Below are positions 912-35,869 of a stretch of DNA of 37,322 nucleotides, one piece after another; the first letter of the stretch is position 1; each line of letters opens with the position of its first letter. Source of the stretch: a virus. Taxonomy: Duplodnaviria; Heunggongvirae; Uroviricota; Caudoviricetes. The notes below the pieces were generated by a model. The model saw only the letters and a program-made list of their open reading frames with translations, did no database searches and was not told the DNA's origin. The stretch covers positions 1-37,322 of the IMG/VR virus record IMGVR_UViG_2908567220_000001. One strand, written 5' to 3'. A program made the translations under genes and the position numbers.

Positions 912-3469
912 CGTCCACCTCCGGAGAACAGACCACCATCGCGCATCTGTGCCTGGATTTCATCACGGGCACCCTTGCGGGCCATGTCATACACCGCCTT
1001 CATCATCTGTGGACCTGGCAGACCATTCGTACCGTCGTTCTGAATCACCACGTTGTTGTTCTGCTCAAACCTGATACCCTCTGAACGCCGCATTTGCGCC
1101 GGACTTCCGGTGCCACCGACATAACCGCCGGTGGCATAGCCGCGCATCAGCCGGTAGAGATTTCCCACGCCAATCCGGCTGGTTGCCTCCTTCGTGAAGA
1201 CAAATTCACCACGGTGAACAATCCCCGCTGGCTCATATTTGCCGCCGGTTCCCGTAAATCCTCCGGTTGCAAAATGGAGTTTCGCCGCAGCGGCCTGAAT
1301 GGCTGTACCGCCTGACGCGGATGCGCCGCCACCAACAGCCCCGCCAATAGCGCTGCCGATACTCCCGACAATCCCCACCATTGCCTGCTTAAGCAGAATT
1401 TCTGTCATCATGGACAGCACGGAACGGGTGAAGCTGCGCCAGTTCTGTTCACTGCCGGTCAGCATCGCCGCCATATTCTGCGCAATACCATCAAAGGTCT
1501 GCGTGGCAGCACTTTTAACCTGCGACATACTGTCCGTGGCACTCTCTTCCCACTCACTCCAGCCTGACCTGAGGCCTGCCATCCAGCTCCCGCGAAGCTG
1601 GTCTTCAGCCGCCCAGGTCTTTTTCTGCTCTGACATGACGCTATTCAGCGCCAGCGGATTATCGCCATACTGTTCCTTCAGGCGCTGTTCCGTGGCGTCC
1701 CGCGCTGCCTGCCGGTCAGTCAGCCCCCGGTTTTTCGCCTCAATGGCTGCCCGTTTTGCCCGTTGCTGCTGTGCGAATTTATCCGCCTGCTGCGCCAGCG
1801 CGTTCAGGTGCTCCTGATACGTGACCTTATCGCCAAGTGCAGCCAGCTGGCGTTTGTACTCCAGCGTCTCATCTTTATGCGCCAGCAGGGATTTCTCCTG
1901 TGCGGACAGCTGGCGACGTTGCGCCGCCTCCTCCAGTACCGCGAACTGACTTTCTGCCTTCCACAAATCCCGGCGCTGCTGGCTGATTTTCTCATTCGCT
2001 CCGGCATGCTTCTCCAGCGTCCGGAGTTCTGCCTGAAGCGTCAGCAGGGCAGCATGAGCACTGTCTTCCTGACGATCGCCCGCAGACACCTTCACGCCGG
2101 ACTGTTTCGGCTTTTTCAGCGTCGCTTCATAATCCTTTTTCGCCGCCGCCATCAGCGTGTTGTAATCCGCCTGCAGGATTTTCCCGTCTTTCAGTGCCTT
2201 GTTCAGTTCTTCCTGACGGGCGGTATATTTCTCCAGCGGCGTCTGCAGCCGTTCGTAAGCCTTCTGCGCCTCTTCGGTATATTTCAGCCGTGACGCTTCG
2301 GTATCGCTCTGCTGCTGCGCATTTTTGTCCTGTTGAGTCTGCTGCTCAGCCTTCTTTCGGGCGGCTTCAAGCGCAAGACGGGCCTTTTCACGATCATCCC
2401 AGTAACGCGCCCGCGCTTCATCGTTAACAAAATAATCATCCTTGCGCAGATTCCAGATGTCGTCTGCTTTCTTAAACGCAGCCTCTGCCTTAATCAGCAT
2501 CTCCTGCGCGGTATCAGGACGACCAATATCCAGCACCGCATCCCACATGGATTTGAATGCCCGCGCAGTCCTGTCTGCCCAGGTCTCCAGCGTGCCCATG
2601 TTCTCTTTCAGGCGGCGGGTCTGGTCATCAAACCCTTTCGTTGCGGCCTCGTTCGCCGCCTGCAATGCCCCGGCTTCATCGCCGGAACGCTGCAACTGAG
2701 CAACATACGCAATCTGCTCCGCCGTCACGTTATGGAACTGGCGTGCCATCGCCGTCAGCCCCGACGTCGGGTCTGTGGTCAGCTTCCCGAAGGCTTCAGC
2801 GACCTTGTCCACCTCCACGCCGGATGCAGAGGAGAAACGCGCCACACTCTGGCTGATGGACGCAATCTGAGCCTCACCGCTTACCCCCGCCTTAACCAGT
2901 GCGCTGAGTGACTCGCTGGTCTGGTTAAACGTCAGCCCTGCCGCCTGCCCGGCTCTGGACAGGACCAGCATACGATCTGCCGTCAGTCCCGCCTGATTGC
3001 CGGAAAGGACCAGCGTTTTATTGAAATTGGACAGGGTTGAGTCACCCTGATACCAGGCATACGCCAGCGCACCGGTCGCCACCGCCAGCGAAGTGATACC
3101 AACCATCGGCAGGGTGATCGCACCGGTAAGCCCCCTGAACATGGGGATCATCCCGCCGAAGGAGTCCTTCACCTGACCACCCTGTTGCAGCAGGATGAGC
3201 CACGGATTCTGCCCCCCTGCAAGCTGCGTGGCCACGTCGGTGAACTGCGCAGGCAGCATACGCATGGCAGCTTTATACTGCCCGACGGAAATCCCCGCTT
3301 TCTGTGCAGCCAGCGCCTGCCGGTTCATTGACTGTTCAACGACTGCCGCTGTTTTTTTCGCATCACTTTCCGTACCGGAAAAATGACGCCTGACTCTGGC
3401 CATCTGCTCGTCAAATCTGGCCGCATCCAGACTTAAATCAACGACCAGATCGCCTACCGGTTCAGCCAT
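908..3469 (-). CDS. H: tail tape measure protein H
   Basis: 853-aa ORF (lambda gpH length), Ala/Gln/Lys-rich coiled-coil core, Gly-rich C-terminus; lies between G/T and M. Confidence 0.9.
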   Translation of the reverse strand: MAEPVGDLVVDLSLDAARFDEQMARVRRHFSGTESDAKKTAAVVEQSMNRQALAAQKAGISVGQYKAAMRMLPAQFTDVATQLAGGQNPWLILLQQGGQVKDSFGGMIPMFRGLTGAITLPMVGITSLAVATGALAYAWYQGDSTLSNFNKTLVLSGNQAGLTADRMLVLSRAGQAAGLTFNQTSESLSALVKAGVSGEAQIASISQSVARFSSASGVEVDKVAEAFGKLTTDPTSGLTAMARQFHNVTAEQIAYVAQLQRSGDEAGALQAANEAATKGFDDQTRRLKENMGTLETWADRTARAFKSMWDAVLDIGRPDTAQEMLIKAEAAFKKADDIWNLRKDDYFVNDEARARYWDDREKARLALEAARKKAEQQTQQDKNAQQQSDTEASRLKYTEEAQKAYERLQTPLEKYTARQEELNKALKDGKILQADYNTLMAAAKKDYEATLKKPKQSGVKVSAGDRQEDSAHAALLTLQAELRTLEKHAGANEKISQQRRDLWKAESQFAVLEEAAQRRQLSAQEKSLLAHKDETLEYKRQLAALGDKVTYQEHLNALAQQADKFAQQQRAKRAAIEAKNRGLTDRQAARDATEQRLKEQYGDNPLALNSVMSEQKKTWAAEDQLRGSWMAGLRSGWSEWEESATDSMSQVKSAATQTFDGIAQNMAAMLTGSEQNWRSFTRSVLSMMTEILLKQAMVGIVGSIGSAIGGAVGGGASASGGTAIQAAAAKLHFATGGFTGTGGKYEPAGIVHRGEFVFTKEATSRIGVGNLYRLMRGYATGGYVGGTGSPAQMRRSEGIRFEQNNNVVIQNDGTNGLPGPQMMKAVYDMARKGARDEIQAQMRDGGLFSGGGR

Positions 3470-16890: not shown

Positions 16891-17200
16891 TTATTCCCGG
16901 TAGTTTTCCTCTGTAGGTTATCAACACATCCTGCGCCTCTAAAATTACGGGGCGCTTTTCCGGCGACTGCTCATCCCCTTCACATAACCCGGCAGCAACA
17001 TCCAGGAAGACCTGTCTGATGCTCCTTCTGGCTGCTGCCTCATAAAACTCCAGCGCGGCACCTTCAACACGGTCCAGCGAGATGTCCAGGTCAAAAATTT
17101 CACCGTCAAAGCGTTTTTTGTCCCGTAACGCTAAAGTTACCGTAACTTTATTCTCAAAATTGCGGATCCCTTTCACAATCAGTTCATAGTTTTGAGTCAT
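16856..17200 (-). CDS. DUF1327-like lysis-cassette protein (YdfR-like)
   Basis: 114-aa ORF directly downstream of the holin; N-terminus MTQNYELIVKGIRNFENKVTV... resembles recalled YdfR-family proteins; C-terminus may be altered. Confidence 0.65.
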   Translation of the reverse strand: MTQNYELIVKGIRNFENKVTVTLALRDKKRFDGEIFDLDISLDRVEGAALEFYEAAARRSIRQVFLDVAAGLCEGDEQSPEKRPVILEAQDVLITYRGKLPGIITGSLKSPPKW

Positions 17201-17204
17201 TGAA

Positions 17205-17420
17205 TTACTCTCCCCGTGCAGCCTTACGCTTGTCTTCTCTGATTTTGAAGTACAGATTTGTCAGATAAGTCAGGAAGCCCAGAACCAGACTCCCCAGCAC
17301 ACCAATCGCAGCCCACTGTGACGGACTGACCTGATCAAGCCACTGTAAAAACCAGTAGCCAGCACTGCCTGCGGAGGTGCCATAGGCAATGCCCGTTGAA
17401 ATTTTGTCCATGGATTTCAT
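17205..17420 (-). CDS. S: pinholin, phage-21 S21 type, dual-start motif
   Basis: 71-aa [66 protein letters not shown]...; matches recalled S21; Met1/Met4 dual start; GGAGG RBS. Confidence 0.9.
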
Positions 17421-17489
17421 AGCCTCACCTCCGCAAATAACGGATGGCGTAGTTTTACACTGAGAAATGAAAGGGATTTGAAAAGAAAA

Positions 17490-17505
17490 GCCCGCAAAAG
17501 CGGGC
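17490..17505 (-). terminator. rho-independent terminator hairpin (GCCCGC-TTTT-GCGGGC plus U-tract on minus strand)
   Basis: Perfect 6-bp GC stem, 4-nt loop, followed on the minus strand by TTTTCTTTTC; between tRNA-Gly and the holin. Confidence 0.6.
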
Positions 17506-17712
17506 GAAACAATATATACAGTAAGGAAAGCACTCTATCCAACAAACCACCCACAGTTAATCGGAATAAAAGCAGAGTGCTTATGAATGATCGCCTGCCC
17601 GAAGGTTAGTATTTCTGCACAGCAATTTTGCTAAAAAAAGCGATCATTCATAACTTAAACGTCTTTCAGTCACTCCGGGATTTCCCATCATCGCAGACTG
17701 AAAGACTCTAAC

Positions 17713-17787
<75 letters not shown>

Positions 17788-17790
17788 ATA

Positions 17791-17866
<76 letters not shown>

Positions 17867-18113
17867 ATTGGTTCTTCAGGGGAGCGATATCACCGAGCAA
17901 AGAAGAGTTCCCCCTCAGAACCGTTTTCGATGATACAATTTAATATTCCAATCGCAACAACACTTTGCGTCAAGCTATGTAAATTTATTTATGTATTTTT
18001 ATTTTATGTGAACATTTCACCTTCACTTAAAATATACGCGACAATATATAAACAAATTTATTTTGAAGGCAATATTAAATGTCGTTTCTTATATCACACC
18101 ACAATAACAACAA

Positions 18114-18133
18114 AACCCGCTTGATGGCGGGTT
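18114..18133 (-). terminator. tR'-like hairpin downstream of the putative late promoter
   Basis: AACCCGC/GCGGGTT 7-bp stem with 6-nt loop, followed on the minus strand by TTGTTGTT; between Q stop and the tRNAs. Confidence 0.45.
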
Positions 18134-18218
18134 CTATTAAAGTTTAATTGCGCTTGATTCGCCTCGCGATACAGCTTTGCGAAGCGTAGCAAAATTGAAG
18201 CAGTTTATGCGTAAAAAA

Positions 18219-18761
18219 TCAAGCCGTTTTTTGAGCGAATGATTCTCGCATGGGAATGTATAGCGCATACTCAGCAACGGCCAACCAATTAGCAATTCGC
18301 TTTTCGCATGTGCTAAAACACCACTCTGGGTGTGCATCATTTAGCAATTCAGCCATTTTGCGTTTGGTCATCCCCCGCCCCTCATACCGTTGCCGAAGGA
18401 CGCTAATCAATCCTGGATGCTCTGCCAGCACCTCACTTATGACTCGATCAATACATAACGCCTCTGCATCAGTACAATGCGCCAGCCAGCTCTTTTGCTT
18501 GCCGTTGATCATCTCTCGCAAAAACGCTTCCAGCTCAGCTTTCTCTATTCCCGCTTTTTTCATTCTGCGCAGGGCTTCATTGATGGCTGTTTTCGTCAAT
18601 TTTTTGGATGCCAACAACTGATTGAACATATTTCCTGACCTGCCACCGCCAATATACGACCAGCGCCCCCACATACGCAGTTTGCCCTGAATCCAGACAC
18701 TTTCCAGCGTGGCGAGACGAAGGTGTTCTCCGCTTTTTCCTGTATTCGTTGGGTAAATCAC
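18219..18761 (-). CDS. late-gene antiterminator, Q-like
   Basis: GTG at 18761 with AGGAGG RBS, coupled to the upstream stop (GTGA); RMWGRWSY motif resembles the W-G-A-W motif of Q-family proteins; sits just upstream of the late region. Confidence 0.6.
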   Translation of the reverse strand: MIYPTNTGKSGEHLRLATLESVWIQGKLRMWGRWSYIGGGRSGNMFNQLLASKKLTKTAINEALRRMKKAGIEKAELEAFLREMINGKQKSWLAHCTDAEALCIDRVISEVLAEHPGLISVLRQRYEGRGMTKRKMAELLNDAHPEWCFSTCEKRIANWLAVAEYALYIPMRESFAQKTA

Positions 18762-19048
18762 AAATATCCCTCCTTTCTCCAGATTTCTTGTGTGCGAAAA
18801 ACACCTTCTGCATGCATCAGGCGTAATTCTTCTTTGGTGTAATCGCTGGTTTTTACCCGCCCGTCGATTAGATCGTGGCATGAGCTACAGGCAATCGCCG
18901 CCTGCATATCGTGTGGTTTTGTCGCTGTTCCGCACGTTCCCGCCAGTCGGTAATGCGCCAGCACAGACGTTTCCGGATCGTGATTGCAGTAGCCAGGAAT
19001 TCTGACGGCGCACATCTGCCCCCGCGCCGCTTTACGTAAATCCACCAT
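18758..19048 (-). CDS. nin-region zinc-binding protein (YbcO/DUF1364-like)
   Basis: 96-aa ORF with Cys pairs (CAVRIPGYC ... CSSCH); coupled to neighbours on both sides (TAATG, GTGA). Confidence 0.7.
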   Translation of the reverse strand: MVDLRKAARGQMCAVRIPGYCNHDPETSVLAHYRLAGTCGTATKPHDMQAAIACSSCHDLIDGRVKTSDYTKEELRLMHAEGVFRTQEIWRKEGYL

Positions 19049-35393: not shown

Positions 35394-35588
35394 ATGAGAT
35401 ATGACAATATTAAACCATGTCCATTTTGTGGTTGCCCATCAGTAACGGTGAAAGCCATTTCAGGATATTACCGAGCGAAGTGTAACGGATGCGAATCCCG
35501 AACCGGTTATGGTGGAAGTGAAAAAGAAGCACTCGAAAGATGGAATAAACGAACCACTGGAAATAATAATGGAGGTGTTCATGTATAA
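35394..35588 (+). CDS. ralR: restriction-alleviation protein (Lar/RalR-like), Cys4 zinc ribbon
   Basis: ATG at 35394 gives 64 aa; CPFCG...CNGC motif; position after recT. Confidence 0.65.
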   Translation: MRYDNIKPCPFCGCPSVTVKAISGYYRAKCNGCESRTGYGGSEKEALERWNKRTTGNNNGGVHV

Positions 35589-35745
35589 AATTACCGCCAC
35601 TATTGAAAAGGAAGGTGGCACTCCTACTAACTGGACAAGATATTCAAAATCTAAACTAACGAAATCAGAATGCGAAAAAATGCTCTCAGGTAAAAAAAGA
35701 AGCAGGCGTTTCCAGAGAGCAGAAAGTAAAACTGATAAATTTTAA
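35581..35745 (+). CDS. small basic hypothetical protein (54 aa)
   Basis: ATG at 35581 with GGAGG RBS, overlaps the ralR stop; MYKITATIEKEGGTPTNWTRYSKSKLTKSECEKML... Confidence 0.55.
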   Translation: MYKITATIEKEGGTPTNWTRYSKSKLTKSECEKMLSGKKRSRRFQRAESKTDKF

Positions 35746-35869
35746 TTGCGAGAAACTTCAGTCCTCGAGAATTGCATTGTATTCAAATTAAAACTTCATA
35801 GCTGATTATTAATAATCAACATCGGGCGTCAATTTCAGTCTAACATTGGCGCCTGCCAGAGGTGATGCG

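What the first reader, a model, noticed from the sequence alone, without database searches (positions are those of the whole stretch)
17581..17706. Long perfect inverted repeats in the tRNA-to-holin spacer
A perfect 14-bp inverted repeat (TTATGAATGATCGC ... GCGATCATTCATAA, 17581-17594 and 17640-17653, 45-nt spacer) and a perfect 11-bp inverted repeat (GTCTTTCAGTC ... GACTGAAAGAC, 17661-17706, 24-nt loop) lie just 3' of tRNA-Gly. Repeats this long are unlikely by chance; they may form RNA processing structures, a small RNA or a protein-binding palindrome.
Basis: seen in the sequence. Interest (0 to 1): 0.35.

Follow-up and report, generated by a model that had tools for sequence, protein, structure and literature searches.

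The report
Structured RNA trailer of prophage tRNAs
The two perfect inverted repeats are real and belong to a conserved, about 215-base, three-hairpin RNA that is transcribed together with a prophage's own tRNA genes and ends at a terminator just before the lysis genes; it matches no catalogued RNA family, occurs in about one in ten complete E. coli genomes, and its function is unknown.

Summary
They are RNA-level structures on the minus strand, the strand that encodes the tRNAs and the holin.

Together with a third hairpin, they form a structured trailer: tRNA-Thr, tRNA-Gly, hairpin A, hairpin B (a three-way junction), hairpin C, an AU-rich linker, then an intrinsic terminator.

Across 57 distinct variants, 98.5% of pair cells are standard pairs, against 41-48% when the partners are slid. 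Fourteen pairs show compensatory double changes. G·U outnumbers A·C by 346 to 24, which points to the transcribed strand.

Hairpins keep 65-85% identity between clades, while the spacers between them are near random (32-43%).

The internal loop of hairpin A fits a box C/D-like kink-turn.

The trailer is the 3' end of an autonomous tRNA unit: in the common array form, a conserved promoter sits directly before the first tRNA.

It is found in 536 of 5426 complete E. coli genomes and in phage HK639.

It matches no Rfam family and is not a Pas sRNA, STnc100 or a relative of T4 rnaC/rnaD, although it occupies the same kind of slot.

My best reading, which is an inference, is a stable noncoding RNA released by tRNA processing that acts in trans. 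A cis role in processing or stability is the main rival.

The parts
17930..17957 (-). Promoter-like site TTGCGA-16 nt-TATCAT upstream of tRNA-Thr; putative start of the tRNA unit in this window
   Evidence: Consensus scan. Relatives with Met-X-Thr-Gly arrays have a conserved TTGNNN-17-TA(T/C)(T/C)AT-9 nt G+C-rich element directly before the first tRNA in 39 of 39 distinct variants. Promoter function is inferred, not shown.
17870..17922 (-). Leader hairpin directly 5' of tRNA-Thr
   Evidence: Fold at -20.4 kcal/mol, z = -2.0. The outer stem GGUUCU/AGAACC becomes GGUUCC/GGAACC in other Thr-Gly arrays (sequences), which is a compensatory change.
17791..17866 (-). tRNA-Thr (anticodon UGU)
   Evidence: ARAGORN; Rfam tRNA 73.8 bits.
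17713..17787 (-). tRNA-Gly (anticodon UCC), with CCA encoded
   Evidence: ARAGORN; Rfam tRNA 63.4 bits.
17661..17706 (-).
   Evidence: helices 1 and 2: 99.5-100% of cells paired, 3 pairs with double changes. Model R1 scores 79.1 bits on the minus strand.
17672..17694 (-). Kink-turn-like core of hairpin A. In RNA coordinates: C17693-G17673 and G17694·U17672 (C stem); bulge G17692 A17691 U17690; G17689·A17674 and A17688·G17675; U17687·G17676; then GGG:CCC
   Evidence: Read from the sequence against the kink-turn consensus (my own knowledge). The weak Rfam hit to a C/D snoRNA model at 17627-17696 fits this reading. In variant L165, CGGA becomes CUGA, an exact D box. The three-dimensional fold was not tested.
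17581..17653 (-).
   Evidence: helix 3: 5 pairs with double changes; helix 4: U-A / U·G / C-G series at columns 89/105.
17530..17580 (-). Hairpin C: a 7-bp basal stem, an asymmetric internal loop and a nearly invariant G/U-rich apical part (GGGUGGUUUGUUGG)
   Evidence: I6; helix 6: 4 of 5 pairs with double changes.
17506..17529 (-). AU-rich, poorly conserved linker between hairpin C and the terminator
   Evidence: Identity to HK639-type copies is 0.32-0.36, against 0.65-0.85 for the hairpins.
17476..17505 (-). Intrinsic terminator GCCCGCUUUUGCGGGC followed by UUUUCUUUUC; 3' end of the tRNA unit
   Evidence: Terminator scan. Other clades carry unrelated terminator hairpins at the same place.
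17205..17420 (-). Context: P21-type holin S, first gene of the lysis cassette downstream of the terminator
   Evidence: Pfam Phage_holin_2_1, E = 1.4e-35.
18108..18139 (-). Context: terminator-like hairpin just downstream of the Q-like antiterminator gene (18881-18219), upstream of the tRNA unit
   Evidence: Pfam DUF1133 and Phage_antitermQ for 18219-18881.

Best explanation
The two inverted repeats are stems of a structured, noncoding RNA trailer of about 215 nt that belongs to a self-contained tRNA transcription unit. This unit is inserted between the Q antiterminator gene and the lysis cassette of a lambdoid (Rac-like) prophage. Its order on the minus strand is promoter, leader hairpin, tRNA-Thr, tRNA-Gly, hairpin A, hairpin B, hairpin C, AU-rich linker, intrinsic terminator.

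Shown here: the hairpins are RNA-level structures kept by selection on the transcribed strand, and they are conserved while the spacers between them are not. The three hairpins are separable modules, and the unit has a conserved promoter-like element and a terminator.

Inferred: the unit is transcribed from its own promoter in lysogens, and as part of the Q-dependent late transcript after induction. RNase P and RNase E cut out the tRNAs, which releases the trailer a few bases after the CCA of tRNA-Gly. The stable hairpins and the terminator stem let it accumulate as one or several stable RNAs that act in trans.

The kink-turn-like loop of A and the conserved junction and loops of B would be recognition surfaces for a protein or for RNA tertiary contacts. 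Hairpin C plus the AU-rich linker, terminator and U tail has the build of an Hfq-type small RNA, and its conserved G/U-rich apical segment would be the pairing region.

In short, it is noncoding cargo of the tRNA unit. That is the same logic as the stable species 1 and 2 RNAs at the end of the T4 tRNA cluster, and as the sRNA genes (STnc100, Pas) that sit before the holin in other lambdoid prophages.
For: - **Structure.** Fifty-three consensus pairs; 98.5% of 3019 cells are standard pairs, against 41-48% with partners slid by 1-3 columns. Fourteen pairs show changes on both sides, against 2-6 in the slid controls.
- **Strand.** 346 G·U cells against 24 A·C cells; 98.5% paired on the transcribed strand against 87.9% on the other. 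Model R1 scores 79.1 bits sense and 22.6 bits antisense.
- **Constraint.** Identity to HK639-type copies is 0.65-0.85 for A, B and C, but 0.32-0.43 for the spacer and linker. The terminator is replaced by unrelated terminators in other clades.
- **Autonomous unit.** All 39 distinct sequences upstream of the first tRNA carry TTGNNN-17-TA(T/C)(T/C)AT followed by 9 G+C-rich bases. Mean identity is 0.62 in -40..-1 and 0.34 further upstream. A terminator ends the unit.
- **Cargo-like behaviour.** The same phage tRNA-Gly is followed by A-B-C in 109 of 155 sampled cases. In others it is followed by a different RNA that also covaries, and in one case by a terminator alone.
- **STnc100 replaces C.** In the NCTC13148 type, hairpin C and its terminator are replaced by the Rfam sRNA STnc100 (69.9 bits).
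- **Separable modules.** B-C occurs without A, A-B without C, and A occurs with another hairpin.
- **Kept after tRNA decay.** The trailer is retained where tRNA-Gly has decayed to a 3' remnant.
- **Prevalence and copy number.** It is present in 536 of 5426 complete E. coli genomes, at a median of one copy.
Against: - No expression data were available: no transcript ends, no abundance, and no Hfq or other protein binding.
- The promoter is a conserved consensus-like element, not a mapped start site. In this window the array is the short Thr-Gly form, with a weaker promoter match (9 of 12).
- Most double changes separate only two main clades, so the number of independent events is much smaller than the number of cells.
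- Variation in unpaired columns (0.104) is about the same as in paired columns (0.091). Only some loops are notably conserved, and the loop of A was the search anchor for most sequences.
- The kink-turn is read from the sequence only. One divergent lineage (L190) has lost its G·A signature.
- The element always sits directly after a tRNA 3' end or a remnant of one, and before a terminator. That would also fit a purely cis role.
- E. coli has no known L7Ae-type kink-turn protein (my own knowledge).
Confidence: 0.5

Rival explanations
1. Cis-acting processing, stability and insulation module. The hairpins would guide or limit RNase E, RNase III and exonuclease action around the tRNA-Gly 3' end. 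After the tRNAs are excised from the long late transcript, hairpin A would cap the new 5' end of the downstream lysis and structural mRNA and protect it from 5'-end-dependent RNase E decay. In the lysogen the structured block plus the terminator would keep the constitutive tRNA promoter from reading into the lethal holin gene.
For: The element is always placed immediately 3' of a tRNA CCA end or its remnant; the bases CUCCAGU are invariant in all 57 variants. It is always followed by a terminator upstream of a lysis cassette. Hairpin A starts 6 nt after the CCA. The long perfect stems are very stable. The build of A, with lower stem, internal loop and upper stem, resembles phage RNase III sites (my own knowledge).
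Against: Any stable hairpin would serve these roles, yet specific internal-loop and junction sequences are kept across clades while the stems change. The tRNA-Gly can be followed by a terminator alone (L150) or by unrelated structured RNAs. The modules persist where the tRNA has decayed. In one clade hairpin C is swapped for a known sRNA family. No stem reaches the roughly 20 uninterrupted base pairs typical of RNase III substrates.
Confidence: 0.3
2. Cis-regulatory leader of the lysis cassette. The hairpins would sense a ligand, protein or temperature and set how much transcription passes the terminator into the holin gene, as an attenuator or riboswitch-like element.
For: A structured RNA lies directly upstream of an intrinsic terminator and the lysis genes. 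A three-way junction and a kink-turn are common in riboswitch aptamers (my own knowledge).
Against: The terminator and linker are replaced by unrelated sequences between clades while A-C stay the same, so no conserved alternative pairing links the hairpins to the terminator. The downstream holin type varies. The element follows the tRNA array, not a particular lysis cassette. Q-modified polymerase reads through terminators anyway (established knowledge of lambdoid late control).
Confidence: 0.05
3. Evolutionary debris. The hairpins would be rearranged or decayed pieces of former tRNA genes in the array, retained by linkage and recent common descent without a function of their own.
For: Hairpin A shares short words with tRNA-Gly (UCAGYC, GAUGAUG, GGG...CCCG). 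One variant (L009) is a deletion joining the tRNA-Gly anticodon stem to the loop of A. Hairpin B is tRNA-sized at 73 nt. The arrays visibly gain, lose and fuse tRNAs.
Against: No tRNA model match anywhere in the trailer, even at E up to 10. Compensatory changes and the contrast between hairpins (0.65-0.85 identity) and spacers (0.32-0.43) show purifying selection on structure. Debris would not keep 98.5% pairing across lineages that differ by 25%.
Confidence: 0.07
4. DNA-level palindromes: binding sites for a dimeric protein, cruciforms, recombination boundaries, or a small mobile repeat of the MITE or REP kind.
For: The copy in this window has perfect palindromic arms. The late-region junctions of lambdoid phages are recombination hot spots (my own knowledge).
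Against: There are 346 G·U cells against 24 A·C cells, so the pairing holds only on one strand. The arms change in sequence while the pairing is kept. Copy number is a median of one per genome, always in prophage late regions and never dispersed. There are no target-site duplications and no transposase.
Confidence: 0.03

Closest known systems
T4 species 1 and species 2 stable RNAs (rnaC, rnaD)
   Same: They are small stable noncoding RNAs at the very 3' end of a phage tRNA cluster, on the same strand. A homing-endonuclease gene sits inside the cluster: segB in T4, and an HNH gene in the NCTC13148-type prophage. The tRNA repertoire is similar (Ile-CAU type, Arg-UCU, Leu-UAA, Thr-UGU, Gly-UCC). 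Their function is still unknown (my own knowledge).
   Different: There is no homology. The one local resemblance (CUGAUGGUUCCCUGAGU) is not kept in T-even relatives. The consensus structure of rnaD differs. The model of hairpin A finds nothing in seven T4-like loci. T4 is a lytic phage, whereas this is a prophage unit with its own promoter-like element and terminator.
Prophage sRNAs upstream of the holin: PasA/PasC/PasD and STnc100 (RF02076)
   Same: They occupy the same slot, between the Q gene and the holin-lysozyme operon of lambdoid prophages, and end in an intrinsic terminator (bioRxiv 10.64898/2026.05.13.724894; PMC8550237). In one clade STnc100 takes the place of hairpin C and its terminator, directly after A-B.
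   Different: No sequence similarity to the PasA, PasC or PasD loci of E2348/69. No STnc100 match in the window even at E up to 10. The Pas sRNAs are not reported as tRNA trailers. Hfq binding is shown for them and is untested here.
Functional trailers of stable-RNA operons: 3'ETS-leuZ, and the rrA/rrB/rrF sRNAs of rRNA operons
   Same: These are noncoding RNAs made as the 3' trailer of a tRNA or rRNA operon and released by processing. They end at the operon terminator and act in trans. 3'ETS-leuZ is cited from my own knowledge; rrA/rrB/rrF from the abstract of PMC8144298.
   Different: Those are short, chromosomal, core-genome RNAs with little structure beyond the terminator. This one is about 215 nt with three elaborate hairpins, is prophage-borne, and has no known partner.
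Phage-associated ornate or structured ncRNAs found next to tRNA genes (GOLLD, ROOL, Drum)
   Same: They are structured noncoding RNAs of unknown function carried by phages and prophages near tRNA genes (my own knowledge; PMC12286853 for GOLLD/ROOL structures).
   Different: GOLLD and ROOL are several times larger and form multimeric cages. None of these Rfam models matches here. The host range also differs: this element was found in E. coli and Shigella only.
Box C/D-type kink-turn
   Same: The internal loop of hairpin A has the defining layout: a Watson-Crick stem, a 3-nt bulge, tandem G·A/A·G, a non-Watson-Crick third pair, then a second stem. The two sides read AUGAUGG and CGGA (CUGA in variant L165), close to box C (RUGAUGA) and box D (CUGA).
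   Different: There is a single motif in a simple hairpin, with no C'/D' boxes and no guide region. The host has no fibrillarin/Nop5/L7Ae machinery. The fold is inferred from sequence only.

Membership tests
Rfam families (all 4227 models, release 15) | Covariance-model score at or above the family's gathering score anywhere in 17470-17712 | tested here: not met
   only the two tRNAs reach threshold. The best match in the trailer is a C/D snoRNA model at 15.2 bits, E = 9.
tRNA or pseudo-tRNA | Cloverleaf recognised by ARAGORN or by the Rfam tRNA model | tested here: not met
   no tRNA call and no RF00005 hit in 17470-17712, even at E up to 10.
Pas sRNAs (PasA, PasC, PasD) | Sequence homology to the E2348/69 pas genes | tested here: not met
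   blastn with word size 7 against the three E2348/69 loci gives only chance matches of 10-16 nt (E of 0.7 or higher).
Pas sRNAs (PasA, PasC, PasD) | Intergenic position next to the holin-lysozyme operon of a lambdoid prophage, with a 3' intrinsic terminator | tested here: met
   family description in 10.64898/2026.05.13.724894.
Pas sRNAs and Hfq-dependent sRNAs in general | Hfq binding and Hfq-dependent stability | not testable with these tools
   This needs RIL-seq, CLIP or Northern blots in an hfq mutant.
STnc100 (RF02076) | Model score of at least 47 bits | tested here: not met
   No hit in the window. The family is present at L005 1117-925, downstream of A-B in another clade (69.9 bits).
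T4 rnaC/rnaD stable RNAs | Location at the 3' end of a phage tRNA cluster, on the same strand | tested here: met
T4 rnaC/rnaD stable RNAs | Sequence or structure homology | tested here: not met
Kink-turn motif | Canonical stem, 3-nt bulge, tandem sheared G·A/A·G, non-canonical stem | tested here: met
   Read from the sequence at 17672-17694. Natural variants change only tolerated positions: U·G to U·U in L165, plus the length and sequence of the apical loop.
Kink-turn motif | Conservation of the G·A pairs in an unbiased sample | tested here: inconclusive
   In the sample anchored on the loop of B, 107 of 129 copies have the exact loop of A. Lineage L190 has G to U at one G·A position. Most of the other sequences were found with the loop of A as the search pattern.
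Kink-turn motif | Kinked three-dimensional fold, or binding by a kink-turn protein | not testable with these tools
   This needs FRET, crystallography, SHAPE or pull-down experiments.
Box C/D guide RNA | C and D plus C' and D' boxes, a guide sequence, and the fibrillarin/Nop5/L7Ae partners | tested here: not met
   There is only one C/D-like pair of boxes and no second set. The Rfam snoRNA hit is far below threshold. The absence of the partner proteins from E. coli is stated from my own knowledge.
Intrinsic (Rho-independent) terminator | G+C-rich hairpin followed by a U tract on the transcribed strand | tested here: met
   stem 17505-17490 with 6 G-C pairs, tail TTTTCTTTTC. It is functionally replaced in other clades.
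Dispersed repeats (REP/BIME, ERIC, MITE) | Many copies per genome at unrelated sites | tested here: not met
   median of 1 and maximum of 3 places per genome, all chromosomal. All inspected copies lie in prophage late regions.
RNase III processing site | About two helical turns of (coaxial) duplex, and cleavage by RNase III | tested here: inconclusive
   Hairpin A has 13 + 4 bp interrupted by the internal loop; B has 14-16 bp plus an 8-bp helix at a junction. Cleavage cannot be tested here.

The most novel reading that the evidence does not exclude
The trailer would be a previously undescribed family of stable, kink-turn-containing noncoding RNA that temperate coliphages express from their own tRNA operons. 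It would work in trans, either as a protein-binding RNA (for example a decoy or antidote linked to the tRNA-targeting defences that the neighbouring hypervariable tRNA seems to answer) or as a regulator of host mRNAs. It would be the temperate-phage counterpart of the unexplained T4 species 1 and 2 RNAs, in a system that is easy to manipulate genetically.
Probability: 0.3. Interest if true: 0.65.

Novelty: new member of a known kind. Interest (0 to 1): 0.45.

Why it matters
A three-domain RNA with clear covariation is present in about a tenth of complete E. coli genomes, yet it is absent from Rfam and not annotated in the RefSeq or GenBank records inspected here. That gap is easy to fill.

If it is a released, functional RNA, it adds a new class to the small set of noncoding cargo genes that prophages place in front of their lysis genes. 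It also offers a tractable model for an old open question: why phage tRNA clusters carry extra stable RNAs, unanswered for T4 species 1 and 2 for decades.

A kink-turn in an enterobacterial phage RNA would also raise the question of what recognises it in a host without L7Ae-type proteins.

If it turns out to be only a processing or insulation module, it is still a useful annotation. It marks the 3' boundary of an autonomous tRNA unit that has its own promoter-like element and terminator.

Tried and rejected
- **Rfam.** I searched at permissive thresholds over 17000-18400 and at gathering thresholds over the whole window and ten related loci. Nothing matched in the trailer.
- **Literature by sequence.** A full-text search for six sequence words from the stems and loops found nothing relevant.
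- **Pas sRNAs.** I fetched the PasA, PasC, PasD1 and PasD2 loci of E2348/69 and compared them by blastn. There was no similarity.
- **P22 sncRNA paper.** Not relevant to this locus.
- **T4 rnaC/rnaD.** They share the architecture, but the local resemblance to hairpin A does not survive comparison with six T-even relatives.
- **Model of hairpin A.** I searched it over 70 loci, including other trailers, T4-like phages and the Pas loci. It found no further members beyond close variants.
- **Genome-contig scan.** The exact hairpin A loop pattern matched only the E. coli and Shigella species representatives, plus one apparent chance hit in a marine MAG. That shows a narrow host range and added no diversity.
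- **Self-cleaving ribozyme after a tRNA (HDV-like, hatchet).** Considered by eye. The order of helices does not fit, and there is no Rfam hit.
- **Alternative register for the kink-turn.** A bulge of UGC with the first GA fails, because the opposite strand has GU, not GA, next to the stem.
- **Loop-to-arm pairing.** Pairing between the loop of A and the 5' arm of B is not kept in the HK639 type.
- **Coding potential.** The only minus-strand ORF (17745-17644, 33 aa) starts inside tRNA-Gly, and the apical loop of A varies by 3-4 nt, so I rejected it.
- **HK022/HK639 put-type antiterminator RNA.** Considered from memory only. I did not test it, and the location differs (late region, not downstream of the early promoters).
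- **Promoter scan.** The automated scan did not flag the conserved element upstream of tRNA-Met in L001, because its -35 hexamer matches only 3-4 of 6 positions. The case for that promoter rests on conservation.

Full report
**1. The observation.** The 14-nt arms lie at 17581-17594 and 17640-17653 (45 nt apart), and the 11-nt arms at 17661-17671 and 17696-17706 (24 nt apart). Both pairs are 100% complementary.

In 100 dinucleotide-preserving shuffles of the 37-kb window, a perfect hairpin-type repeat of at least 14 bp appeared 0.01 times on average (1 observed). One of at least 11 bp appeared 0.59 times (5 observed).

The tRNAs are on the minus strand: tRNA-Thr(UGU) at 17866-17791 and tRNA-Gly(UCC) at 17787-17713. 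The repeats therefore lie 3' of tRNA-Gly on the transcribed strand.

**2. Surroundings.** Pfam identifies the following, all on the minus strand:
- a Q-like antiterminator (18881-18219);
- a P21-type holin (17420-17205);
- DUF1327, a lysozyme and Rz;
- further on, Nu1 and the large terminase.

This is the late region of a lambdoid prophage. The window also holds RalA, the Rac-type antitoxin RNA.

One is a third hairpin (17530-17580). The other is a strong intrinsic terminator, GCCCGCUUUUGCGGGC plus a U tract, at 17505-17476.

The RNA from 17715 to 17470 folds into three hairpins plus the terminator at -84.4 kcal/mol, z = -5.27. Each hairpin alone has a z-score of about -4.3 to -4.5.

**3. Relatives.** The 246-bp stretch is present in 536 of 5426 complete E. 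coli genomes. Copy number is a median of one per genome, always chromosomal. The only features annotated under the listed matches were tRNA-Gly or nothing. It also occurs in four E. coli phages at 97-98% identity and in phage HK639 at 75%.

A pattern built from the loop of hairpin A returned more than 120 viral contigs. Among one-per-species genomes it returned only E. coli and Shigella, plus one apparent chance hit.

Fifty-seven distinct variants were aligned. They fall into two main clades, the window type and the HK639 type, which are about 75% identical, with sub-variants.

**4. The pairing is RNA-level, on the sense strand.** RNAalifold predicts 53 pairs. Counting them gives 98.5% standard pairs, against 41-48% when the 3' partners are slid by 1-3 columns. 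Fourteen pairs show changes on both sides, against 2-6 in the slid controls.

Examples of compensatory change:
- In hairpin A, U-A becomes C-G and C-G becomes U-A at neighbouring positions.
- In hairpin B, A-U becomes U-A, U-A becomes G-C, and one position runs through U-A, U·G and C-G.
- In hairpin C, four of the five basal pairs are exchanged.

G·U cells number 346 and A·C cells only 24. The same pairs read on the plus strand would drop to 87.9% paired. A covariance model of hairpin A scores 79.1 bits on the minus strand and 22.6 bits on the plus strand.

Between clades the hairpins keep 65-85% identity. The 7-nt A-B spacer and the linker after C keep 32-43%, which is close to random. The terminator is replaced by unrelated terminator hairpins.

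A DNA palindrome, a dispersed repeat and neutral debris are therefore poor explanations.

One caveat applies. Most double changes separate two clades, so independent events are far fewer than cells.

**5. Anatomy.**
- *Hairpin A (17706-17661)* has an 11-bp stem, a bulged U, two more pairs, an asymmetric 5-nt/2-nt internal loop, a U·G plus three G-C pairs, and an apical loop that varies in length and sequence.
- *The internal loop of A* fits the kink-turn consensus: stem, bulge GAU, G·A, A·G, U·G, stem. Its two sides read AUGAUGG and CGGA, close to boxes C and D. In variant L165 the second side is CUGA. This accounts for the weak Rfam hit to a C/D snoRNA model. It is a reading of the sequence, not a tested fold, and one divergent lineage has lost it.
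- *Hairpin B (17653-17581)* is not a simple hairpin. The junction carries an 8-bp helix with a nearly invariant 9-nt loop and a small CC-UUCG-GG hairpin.
- *Hairpin C* has a covarying base and a nearly invariant G/U-rich apical part.

**6. The unit it belongs to.** In relatives the element is almost always the 3' trailer of an array tRNA-Met(CAU)-X-Thr-Gly, in which X is highly variable.

All 39 distinct sequences upstream of the first tRNA carry TTGNNN, exactly 17 nt, TA(T/C)(T/C)AT, and then 9 G+C-rich bases before the tRNA. Identity falls to background further upstream. This looks like a promoter of the stable-RNA type. Its function is inferred.

The window has the shorter Thr-Gly form. This has its own promoter-like site (17957-17930) and a leader hairpin.

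With the terminator at the other end, the unit is a self-contained insert between the Q gene and the lysis cassette. The downstream holin type varies, so the trailer travels with the tRNAs and not with the lysis genes.

**7. Modularity and alternatives.**
- Of 155 sampled copies of the same phage tRNA-Gly 3' half, 109 are followed by A-B-C. The rest include close variants. They also include a second, unrelated trailer family with clear covariation of its own and no Rfam match, and one case (L150) with the terminator directly after the tRNA.
- Some lineages have B-C without A, A with another hairpin, or a truncated B.
- In the NCTC13148 type, an HNH endonuclease gene and a tRNA 3' remnant precede A-B. 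Hairpin C and its terminator are replaced there by the Rfam sRNA STnc100.
- In strain KC-Dl-1 the tRNA-Gly is a hybrid remnant, but the trailer is intact.

This is how cargo behaves, not how an obligatory processing signal behaves.

**8. How it most likely works.** *Shown:* it is a conserved, structured RNA domain on the sense strand, bounded by a tRNA 3' end and a terminator, inside a unit with a conserved promoter-like element.

*Inferred:*
- The unit is transcribed in lysogens, and also within the Q-dependent late transcript.
- Excision of the tRNAs by RNase P and RNase E frees the trailer.
- Its hairpins make it stable.
- It acts in trans. The kink-turn of A and the junction of B would be recognition surfaces. 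Hairpin C with its linker, terminator and U tail has the layout of an Hfq-type sRNA.

I put this at about 0.5.

The main rival (0.3) is a cis role: defining processing sites, capping the 5' end of the downstream late mRNA after tRNA excision, and insulating the holin from the tRNA promoter. Against it stand the conservation of specific loops and junctions, and the existence of arrays with no trailer or with unrelated structured trailers.

An attenuator of the lysis genes (0.05), tRNA debris (0.07) and DNA palindromes (0.03) fit the data poorly.

**9. Comparison with what is known.**
- *Rfam.* No family matches.
- *Pas sRNAs and STnc100.* It is not a Pas sRNA and not STnc100. It does share their slot in front of the holin (10.64898/2026.05.13.724894; PMC8550237).
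- *T4.* The closest parallel in architecture is the T4 tRNA cluster, which ends in the stable RNAs rnaD and rnaC and contains a homing-endonuclease gene. There is no homology.
- *Other trailers.* Functional trailers of stable-RNA operons, such as 3'ETS-leuZ (my own knowledge) and rrA/rrB/rrF (PMC8144298), are the nearest mechanistic precedents.

**10. Verdict.** The RNA reading is right and the palindrome reading is wrong.

It is a new family within a known kind: noncoding RNA cargo of prophage late regions, and stable RNAs linked to phage tRNA clusters. It is common in E. coli and has no known function. Interest is moderate (0.45). It would rise if a discrete stable RNA and a partner were found.

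Noticed in passing
Related loci L001-L125, position X of the array tRNA-Met-X-Thr-Gly upstream of the trailer (absent from this window, which has only Thr-Gly): The second tRNA of the array is hypervariable in its anticodon. ARAGORN calls include Lys(ttt), Arg(tct), Phe(aaa), Leu(taa), Leu(cag), Ile(tat), a 'Stop'(tta) suppressor-like call and odd two-base anticodons. Its neighbours Met(cat), Thr(tgt) and Gly(tcc) are constant. This might reflect an arms race with anticodon nucleases, or decay of that gene.
   Followed up: no
L001 about 2123-2165 and the equivalent place in 39 distinct variants; window 17930-17957 for the Thr-Gly form: A conserved promoter-like element lies immediately before the first tRNA: TTGNNN, an invariant 17-nt spacer, TA(T/C)(T/C)AT, then 9 G+C-rich bases. 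This is reminiscent of stringently controlled stable-RNA promoters. It is often preceded by a terminator that closes the Q-proximal transcript.
   Followed up: partly
L136, L139, L140, L141, L143, L152, L163, L164, L172: about 260 nt after the same tRNA-Gly: A second, unrelated trailer family occupies the same slot. It has a long hairpin that covaries (for example ACCAGAAUGGUGCAU/AUGCAUCAUUCUGGU against AUCGGAAUAGUGCAU/AUGCACUAUCCCGAU) and a conserved GGCAGGGG-CUGAU segment. It has no Rfam match.
   Followed up: partly
L005 (E. coli NCTC 13148): 925-1117 and 1373-1798, minus strand: In this clade the order is Q, tRNA-Asn, HNH endonuclease gene, tRNA 3' remnant, hairpin A, hairpin B, STnc100 (RF02076, 69.9 bits), holin. 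The homing-endonuclease-in-tRNA-cluster arrangement recalls segB in T4.
   Followed up: partly
window 17870-17922, minus strand: A leader hairpin lies directly 5' of tRNA-Thr (-20.4 kcal/mol). Its outer stem changes from GGUUCU/AGAACC to GGUUCC/GGAACC in other Thr-Gly arrays.
   Followed up: partly
window 17370-17379 and 17426-17435 (fold of 17445-17360, minus strand): A 10-bp perfect repeat pairs the Shine-Dalgarno region (GGAGG) of the P21-type holin with codons about 14-17 of its own reading frame. It encloses the two start codons Met1 and Met4. This is probably the dual-start control structure known for lambda- and 21-type holins (my own knowledge).
   Followed up: no
window 17632 (RNA position in the 8-bp helix of hairpin B): The copy in this window has an A where the other 56 variants have U or C. 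This creates an A·A mismatch in the otherwise covarying helix.
   Followed up: no
L009 1907-1960: A deletion variant joins the anticodon stem of tRNA-Gly (…CUCAGCC) directly to the loop of hairpin A (UGCGAUGAUGGG…). It apparently arose by slippage between the short shared word UCAGYC. Hairpin A also shares GAUGAUG and GGG…CCCG with the variable and T-arm region of tRNA-Gly.
   Followed up: no
L182, L184, L189, L192, L194, L197, L200 (B-C copies without tRNAs): In one lineage the tRNAs, hairpin A and part of the 5' arm of B are replaced by sequence that reads as an ORF on the opposite strand, starting about 10 nt from B. B keeps an 8-bp stem, and C and the terminator remain.
   Followed up: no
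window 35587-35766 (-) and 28020-28136 (-): Rfam finds the RalA antitoxin RNA (219 bits) and an ALIL pseudoknot (119 bits; an IS3-type frameshift signal) elsewhere in the window. This is consistent with a Rac-like prophage carrying an insertion sequence.
   Followed up: no
L202 (T4) 2054-2172, minus strand: T4 rnaD contains CUGAUGGUUCCCUGAGU, which resembles the kink-turn hairpin of A. The six T-even relatives examined lack one G of it, and the consensus fold pairs this segment long-range instead. The resemblance is probably chance.
   Followed up: yes
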